Assembly: GCA_963575745.1 (NCBI GenBank)
Contig: CAUYUJ010000070.1
Location: forward strand, 186,001 to 250,000
Reading direction: 5' to 3'
DNA from: Prorocentrum cordatum
Taxonomy: Eukaryota
Length of the DNA: 64,000 nt
Shown: positions 769 to 41,873 of the stretch, piece after piece
Layout of the letters: every line of letters starts with the position of its first letter
Position numbering within the stretch: the stretch's first letter is position 1
Program-made: the position numbers and the translations under genes
Notes under the pieces: generated by a model
What the model was told of the DNA's origin: nothing
Seen by the model: the letters and a program-made list of their open reading frames with translations, nothing else
Databases searched by the model: none

Positions 769-799
769 GTAGCCATTTTGGCTCGCGCCATATTGGCGC
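769..799 (+). other. DinoSL relict, tandem pair
   Basis: GTAGCCATTTTGGCTC (769-784) is an exact 16-nt match to DinoSL; CCATATTGGCGC (788-799) matches 10/12 of the relict CCATTTTGGCTC. Confidence 0.8.
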
Positions 800-7386: not shown

Positions 7387-8901
7387 GGTGTGTGTATTGG
7401 TACGAGCGATATATCAGAATGAGGGGGCCCGAACGGTCATTAATTGTCCCTGGGTGCGTGGCTGAAGTGAGAATCCGTGGTGAGGATTATGCTTGTTCTT
7501 GTTATTGTTGTTGTTGTTGCTGTTGTTGTTGTTGTTGATGTTGTAGTTGTAGTTGTTGAACATTATTCCTTCTAAAGAATTATTATTGTTGGGACCCCTG
7601 GTGCGCGACCTCTGCGCCGCGCCTAGGCCGCAGCTACATTTTCATCATTTTTTCTCGAAAGCTTCAGAAAAGTGGATGAGCTCCGGATCCGGTTTTTTGT
7701 TGACGCTCGTTTTCCCTTGCAAAAAACAATAGAAAATGAAAATTCTTGTTTTTACTTGATCAAATTGCAAGAATCCCTTGCAAAAAATAAGGTAAAGTGG
7801 ACATTCGTGCGCGCAAGACGAAATCCTTCCAAAACCTTAGGTTTCGTAGCGATTTTAACATAAAAACATCAAAAACCCAATGGTTTTCTCAGAAAAAATT
7901 GTCAAAATGTCCTTCCGCGCGCTCTTGCGGATTCCTAGGAAACCCACCAGATTTTAAACATTTCTGTTAAAAGGGCCTTTGCGAGGAACCTTTTCAGGTG
8001 CTTCGACCTTCTGCAACAACGGTTGCGAGCCTACGAGGGCCACCATCCCTTGCAAAAAATGACACGAAGTGCACATGCGCGCGGCCGCCGCGCGCGCGTG
8101 CCGAAATCCTGCCAAACATAATGTGATTTCAATAATTTCAAGATGCGATGTTCCGAAAACATATGCAAACGCAAGACTTTCTCATCCGAAAAATATCAAA
8201 ATCCACCCGCGGGCTCTTCATGAATCTTTAAAACCCAAGATGGCCCCAAGAGGCGCTCAAGATGGCCCCAAGAGGCGCCCATGAGGCCGCAAGAGGCGCC
8301 CAAGATGGTCCCAAGAGGCCCCAAGAGGACTCCAAGAGGCCCCCAAGAGGTTCCAAAGAGGCTCCAAGTTGGCTCCAAGAGGCCCCCAAGATGGCCCCAG
8401 GAGGCGTCCAAGCGGCTCCAAGAGTCCTCCGGGAGGATCCAATAAGCCCCCAAGAGGCCCCAACATGCTTTCAAGAAGCCCCCCAAAGCCTCTCAAGAGG
8501 ACCCCATGCGGCGCCAGGAGGCTTCCCCCCTTCCCCAAGAGGACCCCCAGCGGCCCCAGGAGGCTTCCCCCCTTCCTCTCACGCTCATATCCGTAGCCAT
8601 CTCGGATCAAGGTATCGCCTGTGTTCTTGGATCATGGCTTTGACGGCGAAAGACCTTCACGAGCAGTATGGCGCAGAGCTGCGGGTGTGTACTCCACGCC
8701 AGTGTAGTATCCACGATCGTCCGCGCGCCACGAAGTGAAGTGTCCTGACGTCATAGGGCGGGAAGCTGGGTGTGGGTGGTTCCCGAGAGTCGTGTGGATG
8801 TTTGGTAGAGCTTGCATTGCCCCCCCACGAAGTGGGGGTATTGGCTGGCGTCGCATGAAAACCCTGGCACTGGGGAGAACACTGAGCGTTCGGGTAAAAT
8901 G

Positions 8902-12671: not shown

Positions 12672-15600
12672 CTAGTCTGAGTCATCAGACCGTGGTGCAG
12701 CGACGGCGATGAGCGGGGCCTCGTCCTCTTCAAGGGCGAGGGCTGCTCGGACGCGGCCGAGCGCAGCAACCGAAGATGCAGGCTCGGACAACTGCTGCAC
12801 AGCCTGCTGAGGGGGACTCTCATCAGGCGTGTCAAACAAAAAACAGGCGGCTTCCTCTTCCGCATCGAGCGGATCAAATGGGAGAGCGGAGGGGCCAGCA
12901 GCATTGACGATGGTGGACGACGACTCAAACGACGGGTCGACGACTCTATCACGCTGCTGCCCCTGTGGTAGAGCAGGCAAGGGAGGATCCACCTCCAGCT
13001 CCACATCAGCTGGCACTGGTGCCCCCCCCTGCAGCGGTGACCAGTCTACGCACCAGCTTAGCAGTCCGCATCTCCCGTTCTCGGTCGGTGAGGCGCCGTG
13101 GCAGCTCCTCGGGTTCCAGGTCTTCGTACCAGGGGCCGACCTCGACTGAGATACCTTTGCGCTTTGGATGGCGGCCTGCCCCCACAGAGCTCCAGGCGGA
13201 CTTAGCGCCCGCACTCTGAGGTTGACCATCGCACAGTCTAAGCAAATTGCGAGGCTGCCCGTGGGAGGAATAGGCATAGCATCGCATACAAATAGTGAGA
13301 GCGGCACCATCGGAGCATAGCGAAGCAATGCAGTTGTGCCTGAGGGCAGAAAGCACCGCGGAAGTCAGCTTGGAATCTCTAAGGCACTTCCCAGGGGCCG
13401 GCGGGTCCAGACCTCCAAGCCGAGACCCATCAGGGTTCTTCCGCGGCACGCCCTTGGCAACCTTGAGACATTCAATGCACTGCCAAAAAGATGAGACACG
13501 AGTTATTGGTGATGCCTCGGTTCAACTTTTGGCCTGGGGGGCTTGGGCACAAGCGGGACCCCTATCAGGTTGAGCCGAGGCCACTCTGGCATCAGCTCGG
13601 CCGCAAGACGCATGACACACTGAGCAATCGTGAGGCATCGCTCAAGCCATTCCACATCCTCGGGGTCAGGTTGTGGGTGGCGGGCAAGCGAACCTTTGGC
13701 GACACTATCAGCAAGGTCGTTACCTTGCTTCCAGAAACGCTCAAGCTCGGTTAGGTCAGTGGATTCTTCAACGTGAGCCTTGACCTTAAAAACCCCCTCT
13801 AAAAGCTTTCGGTGGGTGGGGAGTAGAAACCCAGAATACACACGCTTGTAGGACAGAGCCCTGAGCAGCGGCTCATTGGCTTGGACAACCACATTCTTAC
13901 AATCAGAGTAAATGGAGCTGCCTGGCATGGCATGCATGGCAGCAACAGCGTAGGCCCCAAACTCTCCCCCTTGGGCAGTCTGGAGGTTGGGGGCCCACGG
14001 GGGACAACTAATGCGACAGATGTCATTGCCGTCGTCACCTACCATCACTATCCCCCACCCAGCCCTGGAGAGTTCTTTAACAGTGTGCGCAACACAAGAG
14101 CCGTCCACGAATCAGTGTCCAGAAATACTGAGCGATTTCGAAGAACGGTCATTGGCCCAAATGGTCTCGAGGCCAGTGTCTTCTACATCATCACGAGCAG
14201 GAAACAGAAACACGTCCCCTGGATGCCGAAACAGGCCGCGAGTGTACAGCAAGTAAGCTTCCTCATTGTTCTCGGGCGTGAGGTCAGGCGGAGGCAGAAG
14301 GGTAAACTTTTGCTTGGAACTGTCAAACACTTCCTGCCTCTTGTCATGACACGCTGGGCAGAACCAAAGCCGATGTAGCATTGTGTCAGGTGCACCCCCC
14401 ACAAAGTTCGCAACCCGAGCAAACAGCATATCCTGCTTCGGCGGCCCAGGTCCTAGTCCAAGTGGCGTTACAAGCAACAGCCTTGGCACAACCTCGCTGG
14501 AACGGCGTGCCCTTCTTGGAGCGCAAAGTAGCTGCCGCAACAGCATGGCACACTCGAGCTCCTGGAAGATGCGGGAGCAGTGCGGCACCGCTAGCCCTCT
14601 CGTGGGTCCTCTGAACTGCAGCCTTCAAAAGTTTCTTAAGAAGAGCTGGGGACGTCACAGTAAGCGAAACCTCGGTTCCAAAATCATCCAAGAGGGTGCA
14701 GTAGTTGGGCATGCTCCAAGAAATCCTTTTCCAGGCCAGCTTCATGGCCCCCAGGGGCCCCTGAGCCCCACGCCAGGTTTTGGGCCCAGGGGATCCGAAA
14801 ACAACCCTCCAAGAGTCCCTCAGCTCAGCCCACGGGATGACAAAGGGAAAAGCTTTGTTTGGTTGGCCCAAATCTCCGTGGAGTACCGCACGATCGGCGC
14901 CACAGCAGGGTACCAGGTCGGGTCCTGGGCTAAAATTAGGACGGAGGTCCGTGACCTCATCTTGGCAGGCGGCTGCATAATACTGGCGGCGGCAACCTGC
15001 AGTCTGTCCCATTCATAATTCGAGAGCCCGTGAACCTCAGACCCAAACGCGAGGCTGGGAAGGGGACCCGTGGTAAAAACTTTGACAGCATGCCGCCCGA
15101 GGGGCCGCTTGGCTCGCTTGAGCCTTCTAACCTTTTTGTTGAAAGCCCGCTTGCGGTCAGAAAACTCCCCCCCCCCCCCCTCACCAGGAAGCCGACGGAA
15201 GGTGCCAGGGGCAAAATCAATCCCCAAGTTGACGGCCCCTTGGATGATGGGCCCCGCGAGGCCACCAAGACAGTCCCTGACTTGCGTGGCGAGCGCGTCC
15301 GACGAGGCAACGAGGGAAGCTTTATCAGGGGAGATGACCGCGCCCATATCGGCCTCGATGGCCTCCCTGAGGTTGGCCGCGGCCTCGGGGAGGTGCCCGA
15401 CAATGTATGTATTGGACCCGTTGCAGCTGATGCCGTAATCGTCCATGTAAACGTCGAGCGTGATACCTGGTGGCAGCTGCAACGCGTCGAGAGCAGGGAT
15501 GGCGTTGATACGCACCATGGTGGTCGCAAGACCGCAGCCGGCGACGACGCCGTTGGTGAGGTGGAACGGGCCGACGACCACGCCGCCGAGAGAAACAAAT

Positions 15601-16031
15601 CTGCCGTGACGATGTCCTTGCACAGTGAGCCGAGCTAACTGGACGGGGAACTCATACTGGTGGCAACGCTGAAGGAGCGTGGCCAAGTGCACCAACTCAA
15701 AACATTTGTAGAGGTCCCACAGAATCGTGCAGCTAGACTGGTTGCTGGCCACAGCTCCTTCAGCTCGCAAAGTCTGCCTCCAGACAACATCGACAGAGGA
15801 AGAAAACTGGGGCCCAGCGAAATAGCTGCGCTGAAACCTGCTTTCCCACTGGGCCGCGTAAAGCCTGCGGCGCCGCCCCCAGAGGCGGCGGGGACTGCAA
15901 AAAAGCCCGATGGGCCGATGCCCTCCAGAGGGTTTGCTGAGAAGGGAAAACACAACCAGGGAAGTTTGCCCAGGAAAAAGCCCAGAAGCTTCCATGATGG
16001 AGTACATGGTACCCAGGACATCCAAGGACCC

Positions 16032-16100
<69 letters not shown>

Positions 16101-17730
16101 GCATCATGCTTCATGTGGGAACCGTCAACAGCAGTGGCAGAACGGGCGGCGTACCGTCTGGAGGCCGACCGAAGAGTATCAGCAGTGAGGCGGCGGGGGA
16201 GGGGTTTGACGCATTGGAACTTGGCCTCCTTCGAGGGGGGGGGGGGGGGGGGGGGGGCGGGGGGGGCACCCCATAACTGACTGAACTTACTGGCCTCGGA
16301 GGCAAGCAGCGCCAAGGGGTCCGAGATGACAGCTCCTTCTCTGCTGAGGGTCGTGGTGGGGGTCCACGGATGGCTGCCCCTAACATGCTGGTGAGCTCTC
16401 CTGGCGCCCTGATCATTGGACTGAAAAAGCCACTCCTTCCACTCAGCGAGCGCCTGCGACTTGGCCTTCACGGCAAAGGTCGCAACGTGCTCGTCTAAGT
16501 CGGAGAGAATGGATTCCCCGATGACGAGGCCGAGGAGATCGTGTTGACCTAAAAAAGTTTGCACTCGCATGACTTGGCCACTGTGGGCGTCCAGCCCCTG
16601 CTTCAAAAAGCCAGGAGGATTGAGCAACAACCGTCGAACTTCCTGGGCCTGGGCGGATCCTATAGCAACCGCATCAAGCTGGAGAAGGAGCCTGAACTTA
16701 CTAATCGCATCGAATACAATTGGGGCTGTCGGTGGGGGGCCCTGCCGATCTTGATCGAGGATGTTAACCCAATGCTGCTGTGGCATCTTCCCCCTGCTCC
16801 CCCAACAAGGAAGGGTAGCTTGCCTGCCCCTTGCTAGCTCCTTCTCCGAAGGGTCGGCCCAGTGCTTATAGAGGGCGTCGAGCAGGCACTGGACAGCGTG
16901 CACGTCACCGCTGTGGCAAGCATCTAAGGCACGATCAGCCTCGCACTGAATAGCAGTCCAATCTGGAGGTAAAGGCGCAGGACCGATCGCGGGCTCAGTC
17001 GGCAACGGCGGTGGCTTCCGAAAGACGAGACCGTGGCGCTTCCCGATCCCTGCGTGAACCTGCATCTGCACGGGGAGATGAGTAACTATGTTAGACGTGT
17101 GGATGGCACTGACGGAAGAAATACCTTTGGCAAGCCCAGCAGTGACGATAAACTAATCAAGCATGCTAGCACCACACGTGCCCACGACGTCTTTTGGGGC
17201 GGCCACCTGTGCACCCAACCTGTTGACAATTCCTGACGATGCGAGCGTGTCGGGGCTCATGTTAAAATCAGCTCCAATGATGGTGGGTAGGCCTACCTGC
17301 TCAACAACCGTGCCGATGCATGCCAGGAGCTCCACGTTGGCCTCGGAGAGCCACTCAACAGTACGCATATAGGTGCTGCAAACGAGGATGGGATCACCGC
17401 CAGGTATATGTACTACAGGTCCGATCGAACGATGACGGTCGATGATGCGGCCTCCAGGAGGTGCGTGACATCCCAAAGAGTTCTGGACCAAGATGCCTAC
17501 CCCTGACGAAGTACCATGTCCAACTCCTGGAGCGGCAGGCCCAAGGATAGCTTTCCACCCATGCCGATGCGCCCAGTCTGTAGCCTCCTCCAGCTCAGCT
17601 TCGAGCAAGTGGCGCTCTTGGATCAAGAGAATGTGCGCACCACACTGAGGGGGCCAAGCTTTGAGACCGCCTCCCGAATCGGATTGCCAAGGCGTGACGC
17701 TAGCAGTCTGGATGACGAGCTCAACACTAG
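12672..17730 (-). pseudogene. LINE ORF2: AP endonuclease, reverse transcriptase, RNase H, C-terminal Cys-rich region
   Basis: APE: ILLIQERHL, SSGVGIL, IIGADFN. RT: KPSGGHRPIGL, LWDLYKCFELV, GVVAGCGLAT, VYMDD, VNLGID. HRLWFC motif. RNase H: DGSC, TAQGGE, IYSDC, KVKAH, GNDLADSVAK. Then WQCIEC and ICMRCYAY. Several frameshifts and a (GA)n insert. Confidence 0.93.
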
Positions 17731-18245: not shown

Positions 18246-19525
18246 CTAAGCACTGGTTCCTCCCCCCGCCCCGACAGGAGCAGGGGAAGGGGGTTGAAGG
18301 GCCTTCTCTGCCTTGGCCCGCACATCGTCAGCTGCTGGGGCTCCACCACCAGCTGGAGTGGCCTCGGCGGCGGCCGCGGCTGGGGCAGCAGCAGGTGCCC
18401 CACGCGGCTCGTCAGCTCCAGCATCTCCACCAGCAGCTGCCTCCAGGTCGGCACGGCGCCGCTTGCTAGCAACGCGAGCCAGGTGTTCCCGATGGGCATC
18501 TCGAGCAGCTTTGGCGGCAGCCACCAGGGGGCCCAGCAGGTCTTTGGCGAGCTTGGACACGCCCGCGTTGAGGTCCTCCTTCCGCTTGGCGATCTTTTCG
18601 CGGTCCTTCTCCTGGAGCTCGGCATCGCCCTCGAAGAAGCTGGCCTCGTCCACTGTGAGGAAAGCGCCCAGGTCGAACGTGTCGGCGCACAGGTCCTCCA
18701 GCTTGAGCTTGGCAGGCACAGGAGCAGCGGGGGGGGGGGGCCACTGACGCCTGCTGCTGCAGGTCCGCAACCAACGACTTGTACTGCTGGTCGGCCGTGG
18801 CCAGCTCCTCACGCATGTTGCGCACCGTGTCTTCAAGCTTGGCAACGTCATCCCTCCATAGCAAGAGCTTGTCCACTTCTCTGTCCAAGGTCTTCTCCAA
18901 ACGAGCCACCGCCGCGAACTGCTGCTGCACGCGCTGGTGGAGTGGTGTGGGAGGCTTGGGCAACTCTTGAGCATGAAGTTTCTTGAACTCAGCCTCGTAC
19001 TTGGATGCCGTGGTCATGTCGCCTCCTTTGCGCGCGAGCTCAGCCAGCTGCTTGGCCTCGGTCGCGTTGAGCTGGCTCTGCGCTCCGACTGGAAGCGGGG
19101 GTGCCCTGGCGGCTGGAGCCTCCAGGATGCCCTCCTCCGTGTGCAGCACCAGCGAACAGTCCAGAACCACCTGGGAGCCCTGAGGGAGGACGAACTTGCA
19201 TGGCCCATGGCGCCGTCGGTGAGAAGACGCCAGGCGGAGCCTGAGACCACGCCCCACTCTGTGGGGCTTCACCTTCAACGGGGCGCACAGCAGCAAGAGG
19301 AGTCCCACAATGCTTGCAGTAGCGAGACGCCTTCGGGTTCTTGGCGCAGCCGCAGGAGCTGCACTTGAACTTGGAGAACCCTTCTGCAGTCTTGTCCGTG
19401 TACATGTAGGCGCTACTGTAGTGCCATGGGGGAGCCGTGCCGTTGGACCTGTCCTCTCGACCGCGTCCTTTGCCACGCCCTCCACCTTTAGCACCACCAT
19501 TGCGCTGGGTAGGCGGGGGTGTCAT
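18246..19525 (-). pseudogene. LINE ORF1 (G/K/R-rich N-terminus, C4 zinc finger, coiled coil), frameshifted
   Basis: MTPPPTQRNGGAKGGGRGKGRG...FKCSSCGCAKNPKASRYCKHCG, then helical VARLEKTLDREVDKLL...; one frameshift at the poly-G run ~18729-18740. Confidence 0.8.
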
Positions 19526-19617: not shown

Positions 19618-19639
19618 TTTGTGCCATAACGGCTAAGGA
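19618..19639 (-). other. Degenerate DinoSL relict (17/22, ungapped)
   Basis: Minus strand TCCTTAGCCGTTATGGCACAAA vs TCCGTAGCCATTTTGGCTCAAG, ~90 nt upstream of the ORF1 ATG. Confidence 0.6.
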
Positions 19640-24103: not shown

Positions 24104-24196
24104 CGGGGGGGGGAGCGGCGTGGATCCAAGAAATCCGCCCGGAACGCCAAACATTGACGTTTATGGTGTTTTTTGGGGTTCTCTTTTATATACCCA

Positions 24197-24464: not shown

Positions 24465-24565
24465 CGGCTGGGTTCCCGGGTTCCCGGTTCCGGGTTCCTG
24501 GGTTCCTCGTTGTGGGTTCCGGCCGGGCCGATCTCGGTGGGTTCCGGGTTCCCGGGTTCCCGGTC
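24465..24565. repeat. (GGGTTCC)n-like minisatellite
   Basis: Direct observation. Confidence 0.85.
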
Positions 24566-25029: not shown

Positions 25030-28000
25030 GCAAGAATGACCAATCTTGAATTTGATGTTTGTGATGTTGACGGTTGGTTTTGCGACGCGGCTAATCACCC
25101 ATATCAGCAACGATGTCGTCAAAGACGCACCACAACCTTTTTGCCAACACCGACGTAGGTAAAGTCGTGGGGTGTACCCCTTCCGCGACAGCGATCAGTA
25201 TGCGAACTAGGTCCTGGTCTGGGTACGTCACCAAAACCTGGGGTTCCCAAGCTCTATTGTTTGCTGCCGTGTGTCTTGCGGCCTACCAAGCAGGTAGGTA
25301 CATGGTGCTGGCGTCCATCGTGGCGCCTGTGCAGTTCGCTATCCGCGTCGTGGTGGCGGGATGCGGTTTCGCCACGACGTACGACGATGATTCGGATTTT
25401 TTTGTTGGATGTTTTTGATTCGGTCTCGATCCCTGGTAGCATGCCGCTAGATGTCTATATTGACGACACGGGGCTCGAGGCGGCCGGTACCGAGGATTCG
25501 ATCGTCCAGGGGCTCATCGTTTCAGGTAGCGAGTTGCACAAAGGTATCAATCAAATGATGGTGGCTGAGATTGCCATGGGCAAAGTTGCCATGGTCTGTT
25601 CGTCTAAAGCGATTGCCTTTAAGTTGCAGCAGCACTTTGGGCCTCTGGTAGGCCCTCGCGTGGAATCGGCCATTAATCAAAAGTCAGGAGGGTCCGAGGC
25701 CGAAATTCCAAAATCAAGGCCAGGGCTGCCAAGGCGGCCGCGCGACCGGGCCGTCTTCGGCGCCACAAAGCCATCCTCGGCCGTCCAACCCGCAAGGTTT
25801 TTTTTTTGCTGGGGCCCTTCCCGCCTTGCGGTACGGTTGCGAGGTCCACGGGTTTTCGGGCGGAGAGCTGGCTAAAGTGCGGCGCCCGGCGGGGTCCACT
25901 TTGAAAAACCCTCCTCAGGTGGGCGCTCTCTCTGCTCGCTCCTGCGCCGGAGGGTGGCCCGACGCGGTTCGGCACGCCTGCCCCGATCTTGCGCTATGCG
26001 CGCGAAGTGTGGCTCAGACACACATCCGCCACCCCCTCGGCCTTCTCTTGGGGCTTCTTGAGGGACGCCTGGGCCCAGGCTTTCAGTGGGCCTTGCCCCA
26101 GTTGGCGGGCCGTGAGCCCTCTGGGAGCGATGAGGTGTGTGTCTCAGCCGTCCGGGGTGATCGATGGTCCGGGGGTACCCTCACCCCCCCTGCCTTGCTC
26201 AAAAAGGTGCGCCGAGAAGCCTCTCGCAGACTTCTACAACGCAGGAGGTCAAATACGCGCAGAACCACAGGCTGTGCTTTGACATTGTTTTGGAAGGGTT
26301 GGCGGCCAAGAAGTACTCGGCCTTGGACAAGGGCTGCATCCTCACCGTATGCTGTAACGGGGTCTGGTCGCTTGCCCGCGCTCGTGCTGCAGGCTACCAA
26401 GTGGACGACGTCTGCCCTCTGCGCTGCCTGCCAAACGACACTATTTTTCACCGCCTTTGAGAGTGTTCTTCGTGCGAAGACCTGAGGAAAGAGCTGGTGC
26501 CTAAAAGATTTTTGGGCTTTGCCAGGAAGCCCGACCTCGCGATCCTTGAGCGGTTCCATCTTGAAACAGGTCTTTTCCCTCATCCTGGAGAGTGGTGGCG
26601 TCGACCCTTGGGACAAGACGAAGCTTTCGCGGCCCAGATTCTCAGAGTTTCTCAAGTCGGCACAGGCCTAGATGAGCCGCCATACATTTCCAGTGGCTTC
26701 GCAATGCACGCGGACATGGGACAATAGCTGGTGGGGAACATTTTCTTTGATGGTTCGTGTAGGAAGTCGCCTATCAAGGAGCTTTGGAGGGCAGGGTGAG
26801 GTGCGGCGAAGCTTTCGGCCAACGGCGAGTTCCGGGCGATTCTCTGCGGCCCTCTCTCCTCTAGCTTCCCGCAGTTTGGTGCCCCTGCTCGCACGGCTGC
26901 CCTTTTGCCCCCGAAACCTCTCAGATGTAAAAGCGACTGTCAAAATGTCGTCAAGCTGTGGACGTTGCTTCGGATGTATTCGGGGTTTCTGTTGCAGGCT
27001 GACGCCTTAGCCGACGGCGCCATCGACGGCGTAGATAAGGTGAAGGCTAATCCCGAGCTTGACCAGCCTCTTGATGTTGACGAGCTGTTTAAGAGGAAGG
27101 GGAACGACTGGGCCGACAGAGCAGCGAAGCTCGGTGCGGCCCTGCACCCCGACGGCACTGAGGATGACCACCAGCGGGTCTCGCATCTAGCGGCTGTCTC
27201 CCGAGCCGTCGTCAAGCTCGCCGCCCGCATGATGCCCCTCTGGCCCCGAGCCGCGTTGGACGGGGCCCCGCTGGCGCCGAGGCCCGGAGACCCCCGCGCC
27301 GAGGGGCTTGGCCAAGATTGGATTATCATCGGCAACCCTCCTCGAATTTTTTGGCAGTGCCAGCGTTGTTTTTCGAGGATCTCGTTCCCGTGTGAAAACG
27401 TTGCCTGGGCGTTGCGCGCAGCACCTCACAGTGCAGCCCCAGGTGTTGCAGACTCTAGGGCGCCGCTGCGTCCTCATCGACTGCAGCGATGCTTCGTTTG
27501 TTTGCATATGCCAGTGGTGTGGCAGCTACACGTCAGGTGAGCGCATGGCCAACCTTGCCAAGAAGTGCGTTCTGCTGGCGTCGCCACACAAGAATGTGAA
27601 TTGGAGGCTTCTCGGCAGGGAGCTCCACCCAAGGCAGACTGGGGTCAAAGTCGACCTGTCCACGTTCTGGCCTCTCGGCGTCCCAGGTCCTGCGGACGCA
27701 GGCCCTACTGCGCCGTCTGCTGCCGACGGGGTGGAGCCGGGCGCGGAGATGGGCGGGCCTGGGACGGGGAAGATTGGTCCTAACTCCCTCGAGCCGCATA
27801 TTTCGGAGGCTGCGCCGTGGGAGTGCGATTGTTTGTGCTGCCGAAGAGGAGGTTTCGAGCTTCCTGTTCGGCCCCGCGCATGGCTCGGGTCCTGCCGCGC
27901 AGGTTGAGCATGGGCCCGCGGCTAGCGTCGTCGCCGCTCACAGTGCGTCGGCTGGCAGTTCTTCCAGCCAGTCTCTCTTTTCTCTGGAGGAAGTGTCAGT

Positions 28001-29545: not shown

Positions 29546-29941
29546 CGGGTAGGAGGAGAGGCGCTTGCGACCTCTTCTCGCCGTTGCCGATGCCCCCCCC
29601 GCAGCCGACCTGATCGGGGACCGATCGAAGTTTGATGTTCAACATTGGAGAAACACATGGAACCCGTACCACCCCCAACCAGAAGTTCGGGTCACATTCT
29701 GGGTCTTCGGGTTGGGTTGGGGTGGTCTGGCAGGTAGTCCTGCACGGGGTGCACATGTTAAAACGACACGAAGATCGGGACAAAATCGGATCGGGATAAC
29801 TCGAAATCTCTGAGAGTCGGCGGGTTTGGAGGATGTATTGGGCGCCGCGGCCGCTCCAGAGCGTTCCGGAACGCTCCGAGAGCGCTCCGGATTGCTCTGG
29901 AGCGATTTATCCCGATCGCAGCCCACATATGCGGGTAACAG

Positions 29942-32900: not shown

Positions 32901-35900
32901 GTGACTTTGTTCACGACGCACGGGGTCGGGGACATATCGGTGCAGTGGGGGCCCATGCCAAGAAACACCTTGCTTGCCTCCAGGGTGCCCTGGGTTGCTT
33001 GGGTCTCGTTTTGCTGTGGAGAGCGTGGCGTTCCCACACCAGAAGTCGATCGGCGTCCTGGGGTCTCGGGGTCGGGTTTCTTGTGGACGGTTTCTTGTGG
33101 ACTGGCCTGCCATGTGCGCTCTCCTTATCTGAGGTGGTGGCGGCGGGAGGCGCCGGCCCTGAAGCCCCCTCGCAAGCGTCAACAAAAACAAGCTTGCATC
33201 AGTGCAATGTGTCGTAAACCCTCCGTGGCGGATCCAGACCGCTTGCGAGCTGTTGCTTTGCGAGAAGGGGAACGCGCTTGTCTATCCCATGGATCCGACG
33301 TCGTGATTTTGTCCATGCGGGGTCCCCGGAAGTCTCGACCCCTTCCCAAGGACCGGTTTTGCATCCCGAGTCGTTTCTTGACGGCCCCGAGGCCCGGGAA
33401 GGGCCCCTGGGGGCCGAAAACTGCGAAAATCCTCCGTCGTGCTTTTGTCAGTGCATTGGATATCTGGGATGTCTGAGGTGGTGGCGGCGGGAGGCGGCGG
33501 CCCGGAAGCCCTGGAGCGCTGCTGGGGCGGGCTGTGGCGGCTGCGGCGCGAGCTGGGCGGCCTGCGCGGCCGGCTGCTGGCCAGGGACCCGCGGGCGATC
33601 GAGGCGCTGCTGCCGTCGAGGGCGCCGCCGCTGACGCGGCAGGCGCAGCAGGGCCTGTGGTCGGAGCTCGCGGGGGACGAGGTCTCAGAGGAGCAGGGGG
33701 AGGAGGGGGAGGAGGAGGAGGGGGAGGGGGAGGGGGAGGGGAGGAGGAGGAGGAGGAGGGGGAGGAGGAGGAGGAGTTGGAGGAGGAGGAGGAGGAGGAG
33801 GAGGAGAGAGGAGGAGGAGGAGGAGGAGGGGCGTGGGGGAGGGGGAGGAGGGAGGAGGAGGAGGAGGAGGAGGAGGAGGAGGAGGAAGAGGAGGAGGATG
33901 AAGAGGAGGAGGAGGAGGAGGAGGAGGAGGAGGAAAACCGTAGGGTTGGCTCAAGCCATTTCCCCTCTGCTCGGAGGGGGTCAGCGCTCGAGTGGCGACA
34001 GCGCCTGCTTGACATTTCGCCCACACTTCCAACCAGGGCCAAAGCTGGGCCGTGGGCGAGTAACGAAGCTTCCTGTTGCGACATGGGACGTCGAGGCGAG
34101 GGCAAGGGCAAGGGCAAAAGAAAAAGGGCAAGGGCAAGAGCTCAGGACCCGACCGCCGCCCGCAGCCCCCACCTCAGCAGGCGTCCGCAGATTATGCATG
34201 GACTTGCGCCGTATGCGCAGCGACTACGAATCTCCGACGTGCATGGTGCTGGCAGTGTGGAACCAACTGGGAATCCCAGATGGAGGTCGAGCAGAAGCCA
34301 GTACCACCCAGGAAGAAAGACACATCAGAGTCTGGTACGTCGTCTTCCAACAAAGTGGGCCCTCATATCATCCGTTTACAGCAAACTCTGTATATGTTGA
34401 ACTCACTGGAGACTAATGCGGAGACGGAGGGATCGAAGAGGGGTTACGAGGAGGCCATCGCTTCCCAAGAGGTCGTACTGAGGAGTCTTCGTGAAGAGAG
34501 AGATTCAGAGAAGTCAGAGAGCCAACTTACACAGATGGCGTTGACAAGGCTGATAAAACACAGACCCAGTTAGCAAAACAGAAGGGTCACATGGACAAAC
34601 AGGAGCAGGTGTTTGGGGACCTGGAGGTCAAACGTGCGTTGCTCAAGGCAGACCTAGAGGCTGCTCGTGTTCACAAGACAGAATTGGAACTTCGTGTATA
34701 CAATTTGATGCGGGAGCCCTTGTCTGGTCCATGCACGTTGCCGCCAGGACTGGCCCACCCAGCGCACGAGCAGCAGCAGGAGGAGCCCGGGGAGGCCTTC
34801 AGCAACGCAATCAAGGGCAAGGGCAAGGGCCAGATCGATGAGGCCACATTCCTCCAGGGCATGCACACTTTCGCTCAGTGTTTACTGCCTCAGCTTTTGG
34901 AGGGACTTCATGCGCATATGAGTGTGTTGGCAGCGCAAGTCCGCACAGCAGGTGGCTTTGAGGAGGCCCGGCACAGACATGAGCGAGCATATGAGGAGTT
35001 GGCTGAGCGTGGCGCCGAGGCTCCACAAGCTGAAGCAGCTGCAGCAGACGTACCTATGCCTCCCGCGCCGCTGTCAGAGCGCGGAGCAGCCGGGGTCGAG
35101 ACCGAGGCGGCAGCCAGGCGCAGACTCACCGAGTCAGGCGAGGCTGCGGCGGGAGCTGAGCGACCACCACGCTCGCGAGGGTAACATTCAAAGTGAAGCC
35201 ACATCGGGCCGACTGCAGATCCTCACGGTCAATGGAAATTGTTTGTCTATTGCAGTTTCGTTTACCAAAGATTGTGAGGCTCATGCCGTATTTGTTCAAG
35301 AACATGAACTCCATGGTCAAGGTCTCAACGAGGCCAGGGAAAAGTGCGCGCAAACTTGGATGGAAGAGCTTCTGGGCACCGCGCTGCATTACACGGAGCT
35401 TGGGGAGATCGGCAGGAGTTTGCACACTGGCAAGGGCGAGCCTCGACCTATGGCAGCGGCCAGGACGAGAAGCCCCGCTGGTGCCACACAAACTTTGACA
35501 CGTTTTTCCCCGCTCAAAAGCGCTGGGCATAGCATCTATGCGCTGTGGGCATTGGAAGGGCGGGGGGGGGGGGGGGGCTCGCACAGACCAACCTACGCAT
35601 TGCGAGCGTCTTAGGAAAAACATATTACACAGCGGTGCGCCATGCGTAGCGGGCGGGGATTTCAACTTGGAACCACATGTGTTTCAGGAAGGATGTGCAC
35701 CGCGCAAGCTCAAAGGGCAAGTGGCGGTGCCGTCTCCGACGGCAACGCGCGTTGCATCGAATCCAGGTACCTGGTTCGATTACTTTCTTGTTGGCGAGAC
35801 CATATTGCCCTGCGTGGCTTCTGCGATCGCAGAGGTGGGCGAACAGATTTTCCCACGTCGCCCACTCTTTGCAACGTTGGAGGAGGGCCTTGACAAGATT

Positions 35901-37853
35901 ATTGTGAAAAGGCTTCGCCAATTTGCACGACTGTCCGTCGACTTGCCGACAGGACCTGCTCTTGAGGCCCCTGATTACGACGACCTTCGAGAGCGCATGG
36001 ATACACTCTTGGAGCCCTTGGAGGCGGAAGGGGTTTGCCGACTCCCGACTGGCCCTGGGAAGGCCGTACTCCAGATGGGCCCGGATGACTGCGGGGAATT
36101 GCGTGGGCCAGGTTGGAAGGAACTCGACGGTGCCCTGCAGCGTTCCCCAGAAAGGGCTCCGCAGTGGTTCACAACAGAATGTTGGAGCTATACCTCTTGG
36201 GAACCTGCCGTGCTCTAGAAGGTCGCCAACGAGCGGCCCCTATCGAGCACTCCATGGGTTCGCCCGTCGAGTACATGAACTTTGCTCATTGGCTCACAGC
36301 TGTAAATACGTTGCTCATCCAGAATATTTCAGAGAATTCGTGAATTCTACCAATGCGTCTACGGTGTCTGGAGGGGGGTTCAAGTGCCACTATCCTGGTG
36401 GGAAGACTCTCTGGCTCGGCTTCCTCCAGGCTGCCCTTGCGCCTCTCCGCTGCGACGGCTTCATTTGGCGAGCAGAGCAAGTCGCAGAATCACTTTTCTC
36501 TGCATACCAGTTCGCCAATGTCAGCGCAGAGGCCTGCCCGCCCAGAGAGCGCAAAGATCGGGCCCAGAAGTGGAAGGACTGGTGCACGGAGGCGCTTGCG
36601 GGCGGGGCCAAGTGGGCCCGCGCCTACACCGAGGCGGCAGATTCGAGGCGCCAGGACATTGTTGGCACAGATTGCGGCAGCAACACCTCATGCCTGACAG
36701 CTCAGATGAAGGAGGAGGAAATGTCATGGCCATGAGCTTGGGGGGGGGGGGGGGGGGCGCGATGATTTTCAGGTTCTTGATTGGCCTGAAGACATGGTCT
36801 TCCCGAAGGCCCCCGGCGTTGATGAGGTGATTGCCCATGGGCAAGAGCTTTAAAAAGGCCACTATTGCTGCAGATGGTTTCCATCCTCGCCACTCTCATC
36901 TACTTTGTCGGCCCGCTGTGGGCTTGCCCGGTCAGGTTATGTGTCTCATGACGATGGTGGGGGCAGCCCCAACCTGGATGCGCACTCTCCAGGTAGCTCT
37001 TTTCAGAAAGCCAGTAGTGGGTCGCCGACCCATTGGTTTTTTTCCTGTCGCTTTTCAGGGCGACTTCGAGGTGGCATTCCAGGGGTTGCAAAAACTGGGA
37101 GAAGCGTGTCCAGGACAGAGGTATATTCTCCATGGCGCCGTCTAGGAGGCCTGCAGACGCAATTAGGCGCCAGACCGTGCGCGGAGATCTAACTGTAGGA
37201 GACACACAACATATATTGTCGCTTGTGGGAGATCTCAAACAGCGCCATGAACATGTACAACGCCCCCAGCTAGTTCGCACGGCTATTGACTGGAAATTCC
37301 CACTCCACTCACTTCGGCTTGCACTGCGCACGCATGGGTGGAGGAGGATGCGATGCATGGATGGGATGGTTTCGGATCCACTTGAACCTGGGCAGGGAAT
37401 CGCGGCGGGGAGCAGCACAGCTACGTTGTAAATAGAATTCGACTGCTTCCCCACCGTGAACGCCTACCTAGAACAAGGCTTTACGCCGTCACTGGCAGCG
37501 CACGTAGACGACTTTGGATTGACTGCGTATAATGATTTTATTTCGAGCTGTGTTACGAACATGGGTTCGGCCCTTGCGTTCTTGGTGGGTAGCCTCTCTA
37601 GCCTCTTCAACCTCACCTTCTCGCTCAAAAAGTTACGTCACACTGGTGCGAGTCCAGCATTTGTGCGTGCTGCACTTGCTGGTCTCAAGCAATGCGCGGG
37701 GGCTTGCGATCCTGCCATCGTCAACCTGGGAGTGGACTTCAGCCCAGGGAATCGCCGGGCGGCGGGGAAGCGCAATCACAATCGGATAGAGAGAGAGAGG
37801 GAGAGAGAAAGAGAGAGAGAGAGAGAGTGCGAGAGAGAGAGAGAGAGAGAAGT

Positions 37854-37911
<58 letters not shown>

Positions 37912-40282
37912 CGAGAGCGAGACAGAGAAGGAGAGAGACAGATGGGCGAATTGCAAAAAACGAACGCGTAGTAATGCCTCCCTCAAGAACCCCGAAAGAT
38001 CTAAGGTCAAGGTGTGGTTTTGTGGAGTGTAACCTGCTGCGGCCTATGGGGAAGAGGTGGTGGGATGGTCGCCAGCCGAGATCCGTCGTCTGCGACCACA
38101 GGCAGGTTGCACCCTGGGACTCACGAGCTGTGGAGCAGATCTCGAGCTTGCTTTTTCTTTGGAGCCTGACAAGGACCCGCTGCGCCATGCAGGTGCTACG
38201 GTTACCAGATATGCCAAGCAGTTCTGGCTGACCACGTCGCTGGAGCATAGGCCAGGAGACTGCTCGACAGCAGGTGAGTTGGCCAGACTTATACCCATCG
38301 TTCAGAAGCACCTGGAGACGCACCCCAGAAGTTCCTGGGATTTCAGGGCTTGGGGACCTGTGGGAGATATACTCCAGTGGATGATGAAAGCCAAATGGGG
38401 CGTCGCAGGGGCATTTCACGATGCGCGAAGGGGGGGGGCTTCATCCTAACGGCCGCGCCTTACTGTCAAGTAGCCAAGTATTCCATGCGCGATCTTAGTA
38501 CGCAGCCTATCTCTGAACGAATGGTTCAGTATTTCGGCGGCGGCGTCAATGCAAGTGCTCTGGAGATCTTGGAGAGGGGCCCGTGGGTGGATCCACCGAG
38601 AAGCTTTTGGAGGTCCAGCTCTAGCAGGAGTGCGAAAATCAATCGCCGATGCATCAAACAAGTATCTCCACGCTCATATATTACTGCGATTACCCTATAC
38701 AGATGGGGATTTCAAGTACCACCACTCCTCCCATTCCGCCGCCGCGAACAGAATGGCCACATCGATTCTGTATGGCATCGTCTCTACCAGTGTGAAGGTC
38801 TGCAAGAACGCAGATCGGAGTTCCTTTCGGCAGAGCTGGTCAGACGCGGCCTCGAGGTTGACGAGGATGACCCGCTCTTCAGCTACCCCTGGCACCCATA
38901 TCCAGCAGACATCATGCCGCGCTCATGGGATGGGGAGGTTGAGTATGTGCACTCCATCGGGGACCCCTGTGGGGAAATCGTCTTCACGAGACACGTCTAC
39001 ATTTACACGGATGGCTCGTGCACGGGGCCCACTCTTCGCGTTGCCAGGTTGGGGCGGGCAGTTACTGCTGTCAATGAAGAGGCGGATTTCATCCAGGCGG
39101 CCTTTGGTAACGTGCTTGGCTTTCTGCCCCAGTGTGCGGTATTTGGTGAAGTATATGCACCCCTCCAAGCACTTAAACATGTGTCAAGTGATGTTAATGA
39201 TGAAGATTTTGCGTACACTATCCACGTGGATTGCAGGGGCCTCTTCAGCGGAGCTGAAAACAGCTTCACGGCGGCTTCAGGGTCGACTCCGCTGGCAGAG
39301 GTTTGGGGAGCCCTGTTTCAGAGGCGCTATCCAGCGTGGCATCTATAGAACGTGAAAAGCACACATCACAGATGACACAGTCACGGGCGCAAATTGTCGA
39401 CATGAGAGAGGCAATGACAAAGCGGACGAGTATGCACGTGATGGGGTTCATTCACATCTTGATGTTTTGGGCAACATATCCAGATATGAATCGGCTGCCG
39501 CCGAATGGAACCTGATTGCCAGGCCTGTTGCACGCCTCCTGGCTGACATTCCGCCAGCCAAGGAGTTGTTCGGAAAACTGTCTAGGGACCCCGCCCCTCC
39601 CAAGGTGAGGATGATTTCCAGGGGACGTGCGCACCGAGTGCTGTGGAACGGTTGCCGTTGGAGGTGCGCCCAGTGCGCCAGGTGCTTCAAAGACAAGAGG
39701 GCTCCAGGTAGTTGTGCTTTTCTTCCTCCCGTCTTAAAGAGTTTGGCTGACATCCCGTTAGACCGCCCCCACCAGTTGCATGTTTGTACGTTAGTCGAAA
39801 CTGGTAGACCGATTGTGTTTTGTCTGCGCCGCGGGGCTTATAATTTGGGGTTTTCATGTAAGTTGGGAGCCGCTTGCGACAAAATTTTCGTACAACGGCG
39901 TCGTCAAAATATCAATGGACGGCTCCCGTGGCCCAGAGGCCAACATTTTTCACGCCCCTGGCACCTCACCCCCTTGTGCCCCGAAGGGGGAGGTGGTGGT
40001 GGTGGGATCTTCTCGACCACAGAGGGTGATAATTGGTGGTGTCTAGACGTATGCTGTCACACTTTTTCTTCGGCGCTGGTTAAACCTCGGCTTGCACTTC
40101 GGGAAACCAGGCCTACCCAGACCGCTCGTATATCATTTCAGCAGCCCTTTCGTTCCTGGAATGGTGGGGTGAAGAGAGAACCACTGGAAAAGGAGGGGGA
40201 GGAGGAGGAGGAGGAGGAGGAGGAGGGGGAGGGGGAGGAGCAGGAGGAGCAGGAGGAGGAGGAGGAAGAGGAGGAGGAGGAG

Positions 40283-40317
<35 letters not shown>

Positions 40318-41873
40318 GGAGGAGGAGCAGTAACGAGACCTCTCGAAGAAAAAAATCGCCATCGACATCGACTTTTGTCGCTCCGCGCGGATTTCTCGGA
40401 TCCGCGCTGGGGCCCCCCCCCGGCGGCGCATCCGGCGCCTCCCCTGGCGCGCGCCGCGCGCCAGGGAGGGGGGGCCCCGCGCGGATCCAAGAAAACCCGC
40501 GCGGAGCTCCACAAGTTTGGCTTATGCCGCGGTTTCTTCCTGTAGTAGCGGTACTTCGGCGCCGAGCGAGGGGGGGATGTGAGAAGGAGAGGATCGTAAG
40601 TTTTCAGAAGGCGGTACTTCGGCGCCGAGCGAGGGGGGGATGTGAGAAGGAGAGGATCGTAAGTTTTCAGAAGGCGGTACTTCGGCGCCGAGCGAGGGGG
40701 GGATGTGAGAAGGAGAGGATCGTAAGTTCTCAGGAGGCTCGGAAGCCCCCCAGCCTGCTCGGAAGGCCCCCAGGCTTCTGAGCAGGTTTCTGAGCCCCCC
40801 CCCCCGGGGGCGCCAGAAAGTTCCCAGAAGGCGCGAGCGCTTCTGAGAAGTCGCGCCGCCTTCCGAGAAGGCCTTCTTTTCCCTTCCCCCCCTCGCTCGC
40901 CGCCGGATGCCGCCCCCCCCCTCCCTCATGTTCGCTTCTTTGGGGGTCCTGGGAGGCCCTCGACATCACGGCCGGATGCGCCTCGGAGTGCTGGTCCGGA
41001 CGCACCAGGGAAGATCCAGGGAGTCGTGGTATCGATACCTTTCGGTTTCTCCGTTAGGATGCAACTTCCCAGACGGCCAATTCAGCATCGGCGCTGGTTA
41101 GGGGGCCACACGCGAACCCTACCCCTACCCACCACGATTTCTGAGGGGGAGGGTGGGGTTCACTTCGTTCCGAACGAAGTGACCCCCACCCTCCCCCTCA
41201 GAAATCGTGGGGGTCGGGGGTAGGGTTCGCGTGTGGCCCTTTACTGGTAGATCCGCAGTCGGAGATCTGGCCAGCTTGTGACCATCCGTCTTCCATACGT
41301 TCGCGCGACCCCGGGTCAGCCAGGGCAGTGCCGCGAACCCCGACGGGGCGAACAGCAGCTCCCAAGCGCGGGCCCGCGGAGGGCGGGGTGGCGGGGTCGG
41401 CCGCACGTGCCTTCCCTGAGGGCACAGGGGGGAACTCGTCGGAACGTGCTCATGGATTGGCGTGTCCCCCTAGAGGGGGATTTTGGGCGAAAAATTACAA
41501 ACACCACCAAACATACCCAAAAATGCTCAAGCTGGCCTCCGCTCAAGCTGGGCTTTCCGTTTTAATGGCTCCTTCATCGGGCTTCGTCGCCTCGTGGGAC
41601 AAAAAAAAAACATCCGCGCCTCGTGGGACAACAAAAAAAAACATCCGCGCCTCGTGGCCTCGCGGGCCGGGGGCCCCCGAGCCGCGAACCCGCGCAGAGC
41701 GTGCCCGCAGCACGTCGTGGGGTCGCGCCTTCGCGGGATCCCGCCCCCGAGTCCAGACCGCGAGGGCGCGGATGCCGATCTGCTCGCCGCTCGTGATCGC
41801 CTTTTGTCGTTCTGACGAAGGTTTCCTAGAATCAGGAGGGGAGAATCGGCCCACACACACACACACACACACG

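What the first reader, a model, noticed from the sequence alone, without database searches (positions are those of the whole stretch)
33937..33961. LINEs capped by a spliced-leader sequence: possible trans-splicing-dependent retrotransposition
Seen: every LINE here that retains a 5' end starts with a DinoSL-like sequence in the sense orientation: 33937-33955 (ACCGTAGGGTTGGCTCAAG, right at the junction with the flanking (GAG)n), 769-784 (exact 16-mer) and 19618-19639 on the minus strand (17/22). The elements represent at least two lineages (QG-type and AG-type RT). Known: dinoflagellate mRNAs are trans-spliced and retrocopied genes carry SL relicts; SL-associated retroelements in trypanosomes (SLACS/CZAR) and nematodes (NeSL) instead insert into SL-RNA genes. 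Inference: these LINEs have short 5' UTRs (~90-150 nt in the two clear cases) and may lack an internal promoter, with trans-splicing defining the RNA 5' end, which is then copied into DNA. I cannot tell from here whether this is already described.
Basis: partly seen in the sequence, partly recalled or inferred. Interest (0 to 1): 0.8.

Follow-up and report, generated by a model that had tools for sequence, protein, structure and literature searches.

The report
Spliced-leader relicts capping dinoflagellate LINEs
Jumping genes of the LINE type in this dinoflagellate DNA begin with worn copies of the short leader that the cell splices onto its messenger RNAs, which suggests they were copied back from processed messages: a logical but apparently little-documented extension of known dinoflagellate retrogene biology.

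Summary
The matches at 766-787 (18/22) and 19618-19639 minus (17/22) to the dinoflagellate spliced leader (DinoSL) exceed chance: 3 hits of 17/22 or better in the window, 0.1 expected. The focal motif at 33937-33955 is a shortened SL. It is not significant under a generic gapped score, but CCATTT, the start of an SL relict, follows it directly. It also sits exactly where an 82-unit (GAG)n array is interrupted; the array resumes after the element's 3' end, with a candidate 6-bp target duplication. HMMs confirm elements A (13.1-19.6 kb, minus) and C (33.9-40.2 kb, plus) as APE-type LINEs with 5' regions. B is 5'-truncated. No tool confirmed D (766-) as a LINE. The best SL match (8590-8611, 19/22) is not at a LINE. 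Best reading (0.62): LINE mRNAs were trans-spliced and copied full-length into DNA. The SL+relict tandems imply upstream-initiated transcripts. Dependence on trans-splicing is untested: no other family copies or RNA data could be reached, and no LINE lay behind perfect SLs in 248 outside loci, a low-powered test. The organism is probably Prorocentrum cordatum. Interest is moderate.

The parts
33937..33955 (+). Element C: shortened DinoSL relict, ACCGTAG + GG + TTGGCTCAAG, 19 nt where the full SL has 22
33956..33976 (+). Element C: relict-like unit directly after the SL. It starts CCATTT (6/6 to the start of the relict) and then decays
   Evidence: CCATTT occurs at 9.4e-5 per position in the window
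33688..33934 (.). (GAG)n array, 82 units: the 5' flank of element C
33932..33937 (+). Candidate target-site duplication GGAAAA, 5' copy
   Evidence: read from the sequence, weak on its own
33938..40185 (+). Element C: decayed APE-type LINE of about 6.25 kb. First ATG at 34083, EN at 35210-35735, RT at 36906-38227, each spread over several frames. Homology to LINE proteins runs to 39973
40186..40191 (+). Candidate target-site duplication GGAAAA, 3' copy
40191..40327 (.). (AGG)n array, 46 units: the 3' flank of element C, the same microsatellite type and strand as the 5' flank
19618..19639 (-). Element A: DinoSL relict, 17/22 (TCCTTAGCCGTTATGGCACAAA)
18469..19500 (-). Element A: ORF1, 344 aa from the ATG at 19500, with a coiled-coil-like middle part. 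Paralogues of 84-86% identity exist in Prorocentrum cordatum
17174..17725 (-). Element A: APE-type endonuclease domain of ORF2
   Evidence: (EN HMM, E 6e-49)
14868..16040 (-). Element A: reverse transcriptase
   Evidence: RVT_1, 2e-8; 2958 relatives; 3.5e-125
13093..14111 (-). Element A: RNase H-like and C-terminal part of ORF2. The 3' end of the element was not determined
   Evidence: (RNase_H 4.9e-4, below the Pfam cut-off)
25233..27438 (+). Element B: 5'-truncated LINE. The RT matches only from HMM position 136 of 390; an RNase H-like part follows. No SL
766..787 (+). Site D: DinoSL relict, 18/22, containing the exact 16-mer at 769-784
788..804 (+). Site D: second relict-like unit CCATATTGGCGCTTGAG. 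Its first 9 nt match CCATTTTGG at 8/9
894..3300 (+). Site D: decayed ORFs downstream of the SL. RT- and EN-like short motifs are seen by eye only, so LINE identity is unverified
   Evidence: by eye; Atlas lead, 0.87, RVT_1 clusters; negative
8590..8611 (+). Orphan SL-like sequence, 19/22, followed by GTATCG. No LINE lies downstream. It is either an SL relict of something else or an SL-RNA pseudogene

Best explanation
[quoted passage not shown] LINE transcripts in this organism, probably Prorocentrum cordatum, received the 22-nt SL by trans-splicing like other nuclear mRNAs. Target-primed reverse transcription that ran to the end of the RNA then copied the SL into DNA. Shown: the SL-like sequences lie in sense orientation 106-127 nt upstream of the first ATG, and in C the motif sits exactly at the insertion boundary. 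Where an SL is followed directly by a relict (C and D), I infer that an earlier SL-bearing DNA copy was transcribed from upstream flanking DNA. That transcript was then trans-spliced again at the AG inside its own SL relict. In those rounds trans-splicing, not an internal promoter, set the 5' end of the RNA. That the elements have no promoter of their own, and need trans-splicing, is a further inference that was not tested.
For: 1. SL matches exceed chance: 3 hits of >=17/22 against 0.105 expected. Two of these lie 106-117 nt upstream, in sense, of the first ATG of ORF arrays.
2. A and C are verified APE-type LINEs, with EN and RT in the right order downstream of these sites. The evidence is clade HMMs, tblastn with 151 relatives and RVT_1 at 2e-8.
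3. ORF2 homology in A starts at about 17.74 kb, and a separate 344-aa ORF1 lies upstream of it. This is a complete two-ORF LINE layout.
4. C is bracketed by one microsatellite: (GAG)82 ends at 33934 and (AGG)46 starts at 40191. A candidate 6-bp duplication, GGAAAA, lies at both junctions. CCGTAG is therefore the first sequence of the insertion.
5. Directly after the SL, C has CCATTT (6/6) and D has CCATATTGG (8/9). Each occurs at 9.4e-5 per position in the window. This is the SL-relict junction described for recycled cDNAs (passages of PMC7245778; PMC6050394).
6. The 5' UTRs of A, C, D and site 8590 share nothing significant beyond the SL. The shared motif is therefore not a family-specific UTR.
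7. B, which is 5'-truncated, has no SL.
8. A belongs to a multi-copy family. Between 3 and 14 distinct contigs of run X1 carry variants across 15.4-19.27 kb, and paralogous ORF1 proteins exist.
9. Song et al. 2017 found the GO term 'RNA-dependent DNA replication' enriched among genes with DinoSL relicts (passages).
Against: 1. The focal motif in C is not significant under a generic gapped score: it scores 10.5, and 3.7 such sites are expected per window. The pattern that makes it stand out was chosen after seeing it.
2. A has only 17/22, no relict and no identifiable target duplication. Its 3' end is unknown.
3. D is not verifiable as a LINE.
4. The best SL match in the window (8590) is not at a LINE.
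5. Outside the window, 0 of 248 loci fetched around exact DinoSL copies hold a relative of this LINE clade (tblastn with 151 proteins). The loci were 129 metagenome and 119 IMG/VR. In addition, 0 of 105 and 0 of 85 downstream ORFs hit RVT_1. Power is low: only 8 GC-rich sites had >=2.5 kb downstream.
6. A Symbiodinium preprint (10.1101/783902; passages) reports no overlap between functions enriched in DinoSL-relict genes and in RT genes. [quoted passage not shown]
7. No other copy of any family could be aligned across the 5' junction.
Confidence: 0.62

Rival explanations
1. The SL-like leader is a DNA-encoded, inherited part of the LINE 5' UTR. In this reading it is not renewed by trans-splicing at each cycle. 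Transcription starts at or near the element's first base from an internal promoter, and the T-rich core of the SL might itself act as a promoter element. The leader persists or decays with the family.
For: Song et al. 2017 propose that the TTT(T/G) motif of DinoSL relicts serves as a promoter element for retrogenes (abstract and passages). The SL relict of A is more decayed (5 of 22 positions) than the 5-14% divergence seen between A and four listed contigs of run X1. That would fit an old, inherited leader, although with 22 positions the difference is not significant (my estimate). Giant-virus contigs show that a DNA-encoded full DinoSL in front of genes does exist in nature.
Against: The SL+relict tandems in C and D need a transcript that began upstream of the element and was spliced at the relict's AG. 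The TTTT core is kept only in D. A has TTAT, and C has lost it. Three unrelated 5' UTRs share only the SL.
Confidence: 0.13
2. Coincidence. The SL relicts belong to unrelated retroposed host genes or SL-RNA pseudogenes, which are common in dinoflagellate DNA, and the LINE sequences merely lie downstream of them.
For: SL relicts are frequent: more than 20% of Symbiodiniaceae genes carry one according to Song 2017 (passages). The best SL match in the window (8590) is not at a LINE. D cannot be shown to be a LINE. C's motif is weak under a generic score.
Against: Only 0.1 hit of >=17/22 is expected per window, yet two such hits, plus C's motif, lie in sense 106-127 nt before the first ATG of ORF arrays. 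In C the motif sits within 3 nt of the microsatellite break that marks the insertion boundary. The ORF that follows A's relict is a multi-copy coiled-coil ORF1, contiguous with ORF2.
Confidence: 0.12
3. DNA- or RT-level capture of SL-RNA sequence. One route is that the LINE reverse transcriptase switched template from the 5' end of LINE RNA onto SL RNA. The other is that the elements insert specifically into SL-RNA genes, as SLACS/CZAR/NeSL do.
For: An SL-like exon followed by GTATCG, which looks like the start of an SL intron, lies at 8590. The intron of an SL-RNA gene begins GTAC in Amphidinium carterae (passage of PMC12584245). LINE RTs are known to make chimeras with small RNAs (my own knowledge, not from a call).
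Against: None of the three LINE-side SLs is followed by intron-like GT. They are followed by relict units (C, D) or by unrelated UTR (A). The upstream flanks are a microsatellite or unrelated DNA, not SL-gene sequence. The endonuclease is N-terminal and APE-type. It is not the restriction-like endonuclease of the SL-gene-specific elements (that feature is recalled). No Rfam RNA gene is in the window.
Confidence: 0.04

Closest known systems
DinoSL-relict retrogenes ('recycled cDNAs'; Slamovits & Keeling 2008, Song et al. 2017)
   Same: A genomic copy of the 22-nt SL lies in sense upstream of the coding region. SL+relict tandems are joined at the AG of CCGTAG. The explanation is the same: reverse transcription of trans-spliced mRNA and re-expression by a new trans-splicing event (passages).
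   Different: Here the retro-copied message is the LINE's own bicistronic mRNA, not a host gene. The mark would therefore be made at every full-length transposition, and it bears on how the element is expressed. Song 2017 only reports enrichment of the GO term 'RNA-dependent DNA replication' among relict-bearing genes. No paper I could search states that LINE 5' ends are SL-capped.
Dinoflagellate LINEs such as SymbioLINE (de Mendoza et al. 2018)
   Same: Both have ORF1 plus an ORF2 carrying Exo_endo_phos, RVT_1 and RNase_H. Both have target-site duplications and no poly-A tail (figure legend passage). A and C show the same domain order and no poly-A.
   Different: ORF1 here has no DNMT (no Pfam hit) and looks like a coiled coil. 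The passages that mention SymbioLINE describe conserved 5' UTRs, and a search of the main text for 'spliced leader', 'DinoSL' and 'leader' found none. The supplements were not seen.
SLACS / CZAR / NeSL-1 (SL-gene-specific non-LTR elements of trypanosomes and nematodes)
   Same: These are non-LTR retrotransposons physically associated with spliced-leader sequence.
   Different: Those elements insert inside SL-RNA genes and are flanked by the two halves of the gene, and they use a restriction-like endonuclease (recalled, not from a call). Here a whole SL precedes the element, the flanks are a microsatellite or unrelated DNA, and the endonuclease is APE-type.
L1Tc / ingi of trypanosomatids (Pr77 internal promoter)
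   Same: These are LINEs living in a genome where mRNAs are SL trans-spliced.
   Different: L1Tc carries a 77-bp internal promoter that gives abundant unspliced transcripts (titles and abstract starts of PMC1874656 and PMC8190864). The elements here instead carry the SL itself at the 5' end. That is the opposite solution, if the trans-splicing reading is right.

Membership tests
APE-type non-LTR retrotransposon (LINE) | Reverse transcriptase of the non-LTR type | tested here: met
   A: RVT_1 at 2e-8, 2958 relatives, clade HMM at 3.5e-125. C: 6e-28 and further fragments. B: 3.5e-17, from HMM position 136 only. D: not detected.
APE-type non-LTR retrotransposon (LINE) | N-terminal apurinic-type endonuclease upstream of the RT in the same orientation | tested here: met
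   A: EN HMM at 6e-49, 17174-17725. C: three fragments, 5e-9 to 2e-6, at 35210-35735, and a weak Exo_endo_phos hit at 1.2e-3. D: none.
APE-type non-LTR retrotransposon (LINE) | Target-site duplication flanking the insertion | tested here: inconclusive
   C: a candidate 6-bp GGAAAA at both junctions, inside one interrupted (GAG)n array. A and D: no direct repeat of 9 nt or more, and only one 8-mer for A, at 11884 and not at a junction.
DinoSL-relict-bearing retrocopy | Genomic SL copy in sense orientation upstream of the coding region, beyond chance | tested here: met
   D 18/22 and A 17/22, against 0.105 expected per window. C is a shortened SL and is not significant by generic gapped score.
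DinoSL-relict-bearing retrocopy | SL followed directly by a relict unit starting CCATTTTGG (re-trans-splicing at the AG of CCGTAG) | tested here: met
   C: CCATTT, 6/6. D: CCATATTGG, 8/9. Each occurs at 9.4e-5 per position. A: absent.
DinoSL-relict-bearing retrocopy | Transcripts of the locus carry a fresh SL joined at the relict | not testable with these tools
   No RNA run was listed for the stretch. The one read-laying run had DNA contigs only.
SL-RNA-gene-specific retrotransposon (SLACS/CZAR/NeSL type) | Insertion inside an SL-RNA gene, with gene halves on both flanks | tested here: not met
   The upstream flanks are (GAG)n (C) or unrelated DNA (A, D), with no shared upstream sequence. The SL is followed by a relict or UTR, not by intron-like GT. 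The defining features of the family are recalled, not taken from a call.
SL-RNA-gene-specific retrotransposon (SLACS/CZAR/NeSL type) | Restriction-like endonuclease C-terminal to the RT, in place of APE | tested here: not met
   An APE-type EN lies N-terminal to the RT in A and C. The feature definition is recalled.

The most novel reading that the evidence does not exclude
Dinoflagellate LINEs have no promoter of their own. A full-length copy carries the SL relict as a portable trans-splice acceptor, using either the AG inside the relict or the AG at its end. Any read-through transcript of the surrounding unidirectional gene array can then be cut and capped into a translatable, full-length LINE mRNA, and that mRNA writes a fresh SL into the next copy. 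Trans-splicing would then be an obligatory, self-perpetuating step of retrotransposition. The same machinery would explain the mass production of SL-tagged retrogenes.
Probability: 0.3. Interest if true: 0.7.

Novelty: new variant of a known kind. Interest (0 to 1): 0.48.

Why it matters
How LINEs are transcribed in dinoflagellates is unknown. These organisms have few recognisable promoters, and their mRNAs acquire the 5' leader by trans-splicing. If LINE 5' ends are set by trans-splicing, the SL relict would be a built-in date stamp and boundary marker for every full-length insertion. It would give a simple way to find full-length and recently active LINEs in multi-gigabase dinoflagellate genomes. 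It would also tie the engine of retroposition (LINE RT) directly to the SL-tagged retrogenes that make up a fifth of the genes in some species. It would contrast neatly with trypanosome L1Tc, which solved the same problem with an internal promoter. If it is only a by-product of general trans-splicing, it remains a useful annotation rule but not a new mechanism.

Tried and rejected
- **Whole genome:** none is held.
- **Earlier notes of this scan:** none.
- **Sequencing runs:** no RNA holder was listed. One DNA run (X1) held 21% of the words, and two same-study runs held next to nothing.
- **Read laying on 15000-34999:**
  - It gave contigs only, in 667-nt bins.
  - Summed word depth was 33-95 over A's body, 6.3 in the bin just upstream of A's SL, and about 2-8 over B (25.0-29.0 kb) and 2.5 over C's body bin (34343-34999).
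  - The tool warns that this is no copy number, and the resolution cannot place the 5' boundary, so I use it only as a hint.
  - No loose end near 19640 was among the rows shown; 2312 rows were not shown.
- **Relatives of A's ORF1:** none in metagenome contigs or genome contigs.
- **Relatives of A's RT in viral contigs:** none.
- **Alignment-based locus search:** not possible, because the alignment had no conserved stretch.
- **Target duplications for A and D:** none of 9 nt or more.
- **Shared 3' UTR among A, B and C:** none.
- **Apparent 5' UTR similarities:** D-C and A-8590 looked similar over 80 nt. The similarity disappeared over 300 nt and in blastn.
- **Attempts to verify D as a LINE, all negative:**
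  - Pfam at E up to 10.
  - Clade HMMs.
  - tblastn with 151 LINE proteins, 4 plus-strand against 3 minus-strand noise hits.
  - Homologue search.
  - PDB sequences.
  - Only an Atlas feature lead at 0.87 points to RVT_1 clusters.
- **Rfam:** nothing at gathering score.
- **My recollection that the SymbioLINE paper mentions an SL:** wrong. The main text has 0 occurrences.
Full report
**Organism and setting**

The window is GC-rich (59.75%) and has one 100-N gap at 21086-21185. A gene model named Prorocentrum cordatum is 100% identical to part of the ORF that follows one of the motifs, and two paralogues are 84-86% identical. A third protein of that species matches the RT ORF at 90% over 17% of its length. 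The published P. cordatum genome has 59.7% G+C (passage of PMC10666404). Its supplement says that LINEs there are 'largely conserved', with Kimura distance 0-10. I therefore treat the DNA as nuclear DNA of P. cordatum or a very close relative. No whole genome is held for the window.

**The observation**

I scanned both strands, ungapped, with the 22-nt DinoSL.

| Site | Strand | Match |
|---|---|---|
| 766-787 (D) | + | 18/22 |
| 8590-8611 | + | 19/22 |
| 19618-19639 (A) | - | 17/22 |

- These are 3 hits of 17/22 or better, against 0.105 expected from 200 simulated windows.
- At 16/22 or better there are 4 hits against 1.05 expected. At 14/22 or better there are 31 against 38.6 expected.

The focal motif at 33937-33955 keeps both ends of the SL (ACCGTAG and TTGGCTCAAG). 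Five inner bases are replaced by two.

- Under a generic gapped score it reaches 10.5. That level is reached 3.7 times per simulated window, and 5 sites reach it in the real window. Alone it is not significant.
- The exact 10-mer TTGGCTCAAG occurs once in the window.
- The pattern CCGTAG-N(0-8)-TTGGCTCAAG occurs once, against 0 of 100 shuffles. I chose that pattern after seeing the site.

**Which elements are LINEs**

I started from the one clear RVT_1 ORF (14823-16103 minus, 2e-8). A full HMMER search found 2958 relatives. From the best 150 I built clade HMMs for the RT (118 segments found, 80 used) and for the endonuclease (37 segments), and scanned all six frames of the window. I also ran tblastn with the 151 stored proteins. 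Three elements appear.

| Element | Strand | Endonuclease | Reverse transcriptase | Other |
|---|---|---|---|---|
| A | - | 17174-17725 | 14868-16040 | Homology down to 13093, including an RNase H-like part (below the Pfam cut-off) |
| B | + | none | from HMM position 136 of 390, at about 25263 | RNase H-like part to 27438; 5'-truncated |
| C | + | 35210-35735, three frames | 36906-38227, four fragments | Homology to 39973 |

In A, ORF2 homology begins at residue ~356 of the 551-aa ORF, which aligns to residues ~18-60 of several relatives. The 344-aa ORF from the ATG at 19500 is therefore a separate ORF1. Its middle part looks like a coiled coil and is conserved in the paralogues. C has a coiled-coil-like stretch in its 5' kilobase (by eye).

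A is multi-copy. Between 3 and 14 distinct contigs of run X1 cover variant positions between 15408 and 19269.

The fourth case, D (766 onward), is different. I see short RT-like motifs (GVRQGCP...ADD) and EN-like motifs by eye. An Atlas feature search puts its 236-aa ORF nearest to RVT_1-bearing clusters at 0.87, which the tool itself rates as a lead only. Every homology test failed:

- Pfam up to E = 10;
- both clade HMMs;
- tblastn with 151 LINE proteins;
- the homologue search;
- PDB sequences.

**Is the SL at the 5' terminus? Element C gives the clearest answer**

- A (GAG)n array of 82 units ends at 33934. After GGAAAA the sequence CCGTAG begins at 33938.
- At the other end of the element, 210 nt after the last protein homology, GGAAAA (40186-40191) is followed by an (AGG)n array of 46 units.
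- The same microsatellite, on the same strand, therefore lies on both sides of a 6.25-kb unit. Arrays of this type cover about 4% of the window; that figure is my sum over the rows.
- The simplest reading is an insertion into one microsatellite with a 6-bp target duplication. The SL is then the very first sequence of the inserted DNA.

For A, I only have coarse evidence. The summed word depth of X1 contigs at 80% identity or more is 33-95 over 15000-19668 and 6.3 in 19669-20335. The tool warns that this is no copy number, and the bins are 667 nt wide. No target duplication was found for A or D. In D, 46 nt of unexplained sequence lie between the GAG-like repeat and the SL.

**Relict tandems**

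- Directly after the SL, C reads CCATTT and D reads CCATATTGG.
- The relict unit of recycled dinoflagellate cDNAs starts CCATTTTGG, because the new SL is spliced to the AG of CCGTAG (passages).
- In the window, each of these matches occurs at 9.4e-5 per position. At a fixed position they are strong.
- A tandem needs a pre-mRNA that contained the old SL's first seven bases together with enough upstream RNA for a splice acceptor.
- I therefore infer that transcription began in the flanking DNA and that trans-splicing set the 5' end.
- A has no relict.

**The motif is not a family-specific UTR**

Local alignments of 300 nt downstream of the four SL-like sites give no pair beyond shuffles. The best was 38 of 500 shuffles reaching the observed score. 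The two marginal 80-nt similarities did not hold. The upstream flanks share only GAG-type low complexity.

**Rivals**

- **Insertion into SL-RNA genes.** This does not fit. The flanks are not SL-gene sequence, a whole SL precedes the element, and no intron-like GT follows it. The endonuclease is APE-type and N-terminal.
- **Template switching onto SL RNA.** This would bring intron sequence, and none is seen.
- **An inherited, DNA-encoded leader.** I cannot exclude this without other copies. It explains single SLs but not tandems.
- **Coincidence with unrelated relicts.** This is unlikely given position and strand. It is kept at 0.12 because the sample is three sites, one of them unverified.

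**Tests outside the window**

I fetched DNA around exact DinoSL copies.

- The 21-mer alone gave 119 IMG/VR loci.
- None of the 248 loci holds a relative of this LINE clade (tblastn with 151 proteins).
- None of 105 ORFs of 170 aa or more (out of 197 ORFs of 120 aa or more) hit RVT_1. None of 85 first-ATG ORFs of 150 aa or more did either.
- tblastn with the window's own ORFs also found nothing relevant.

This counts against SL-capped LINEs being common among perfect genomic SLs. The power is low, however. Of 137 metagenome sites, only 26 have 2.5 kb or more downstream, and only 8 of those are GC-rich. The RT lies 2-3.6 kb from the 5' end.

**Literature**

Seven full-text searches, and the passages read from them, gave no statement that dinoflagellate LINEs begin with the SL.

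- Nearest is Song et al. 2017 (PMC5585692, passages). The GO term 'RNA-dependent DNA replication' is enriched among genes with DinoSL relicts, which the authors read as high RT expression.
- A Symbiodinium preprint (10.1101/783902, passages) reports no overlap between DinoSL-relict genes and RT genes.
- The SymbioLINE paper (PMC5890265, passages) describes TSDs, conserved UTRs and no poly-A. The main text has no occurrence of 'spliced leader'.
- For trypanosome L1Tc, an internal promoter giving unspliced transcripts is described (listing only).
- Supplements of these papers, and subscription journals, were not searched. Table S23 of PMC10666404 could bear directly on the claim and was not held as text.

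**Verdict**

The interpretation 'LINE RNA carried an SL that was copied into DNA' is the best one, at about 0.6. It is an expected corollary of known biology rather than a surprise. The stronger claim, promoter-less and trans-splicing-dependent retrotransposition, is open at about 0.3. It is now sharply testable in the published genome and transcriptome.

Noticed in passing
L130-L248 (IMG/VR viral contigs) and AT-rich loci among L001-L129, e.g. L014, L032, L038, L051: Exact DinoSL 21-mers are encoded in the DNA of contigs named as giant-virus MAGs (up to 267 kb, often several per 10 kb). There are 134 unique sites, and 127 are preceded by A, which makes the full 22-nt SL. Position -2 is T in 105 of 132 sites, within an AT-rich upstream motif. 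The median distance to the first ATG is 49 nt. The first-ATG ORF is >=100 aa in 100 of 133 sites. Downstream GC is below 0.35 at 93 sites. The genes behind the SL include DUF4116 repeats, RING and CCCH fingers and NADAR, and one RNA-virus RdRP contig. Elsewhere on such contigs lie Capsid_NCLDV, DNA pol X and RecQ. A perfectly kept, GC-richer leader in about 20% GC DNA suggests selection, that is, virus-encoded mimicry of the host's mRNA leader. In one search I found this described only for an RNA virus (passages), not for giant viruses.
   Followed up: partly
window 8590-8611 (+): This is the best DinoSL match in the window (19/22). It is followed by GTATCG, which resembles the start of an SL-RNA intron, and its Sm-like core is mutated (ATCTCGG). 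It lies between tandem repeats, and no LINE or clear ORF lies downstream. It is either an orphan relict or an SL-RNA pseudogene.
   Followed up: partly
window 33688-33934 and 40191-40327; also 644-682, 3990-4084: LINE C interrupts a (GAG)n microsatellite. Site D also lies between GGA/GAG arrays. The window holds 17 arrays of this type on the + strand, about 4% of its length (the sum is mine). This may reflect a microsatellite target preference of these LINEs, or simply the abundance of the repeat.
   Followed up: no
window 20336-24337 and 29674-33675; 20387-20544 / 41096-41239: These stretches drew summed contig word depth in the thousands in run X1. A ~150-nt unit within them matches its partner in both orientations, so it is palindromic and MITE- or introner-like. 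One copy lies 0.75 kb upstream of A, and one lies about 0.9 kb past C's candidate 3' end (40185).
   Followed up: no
window 16035-16099 and 37788-37942: (AG)n microsatellites sit inside the coding regions of LINE A (a perfect 32.5 units, at the start of the RT ORF) and LINE C (77 units, within the RT region).
   Followed up: no
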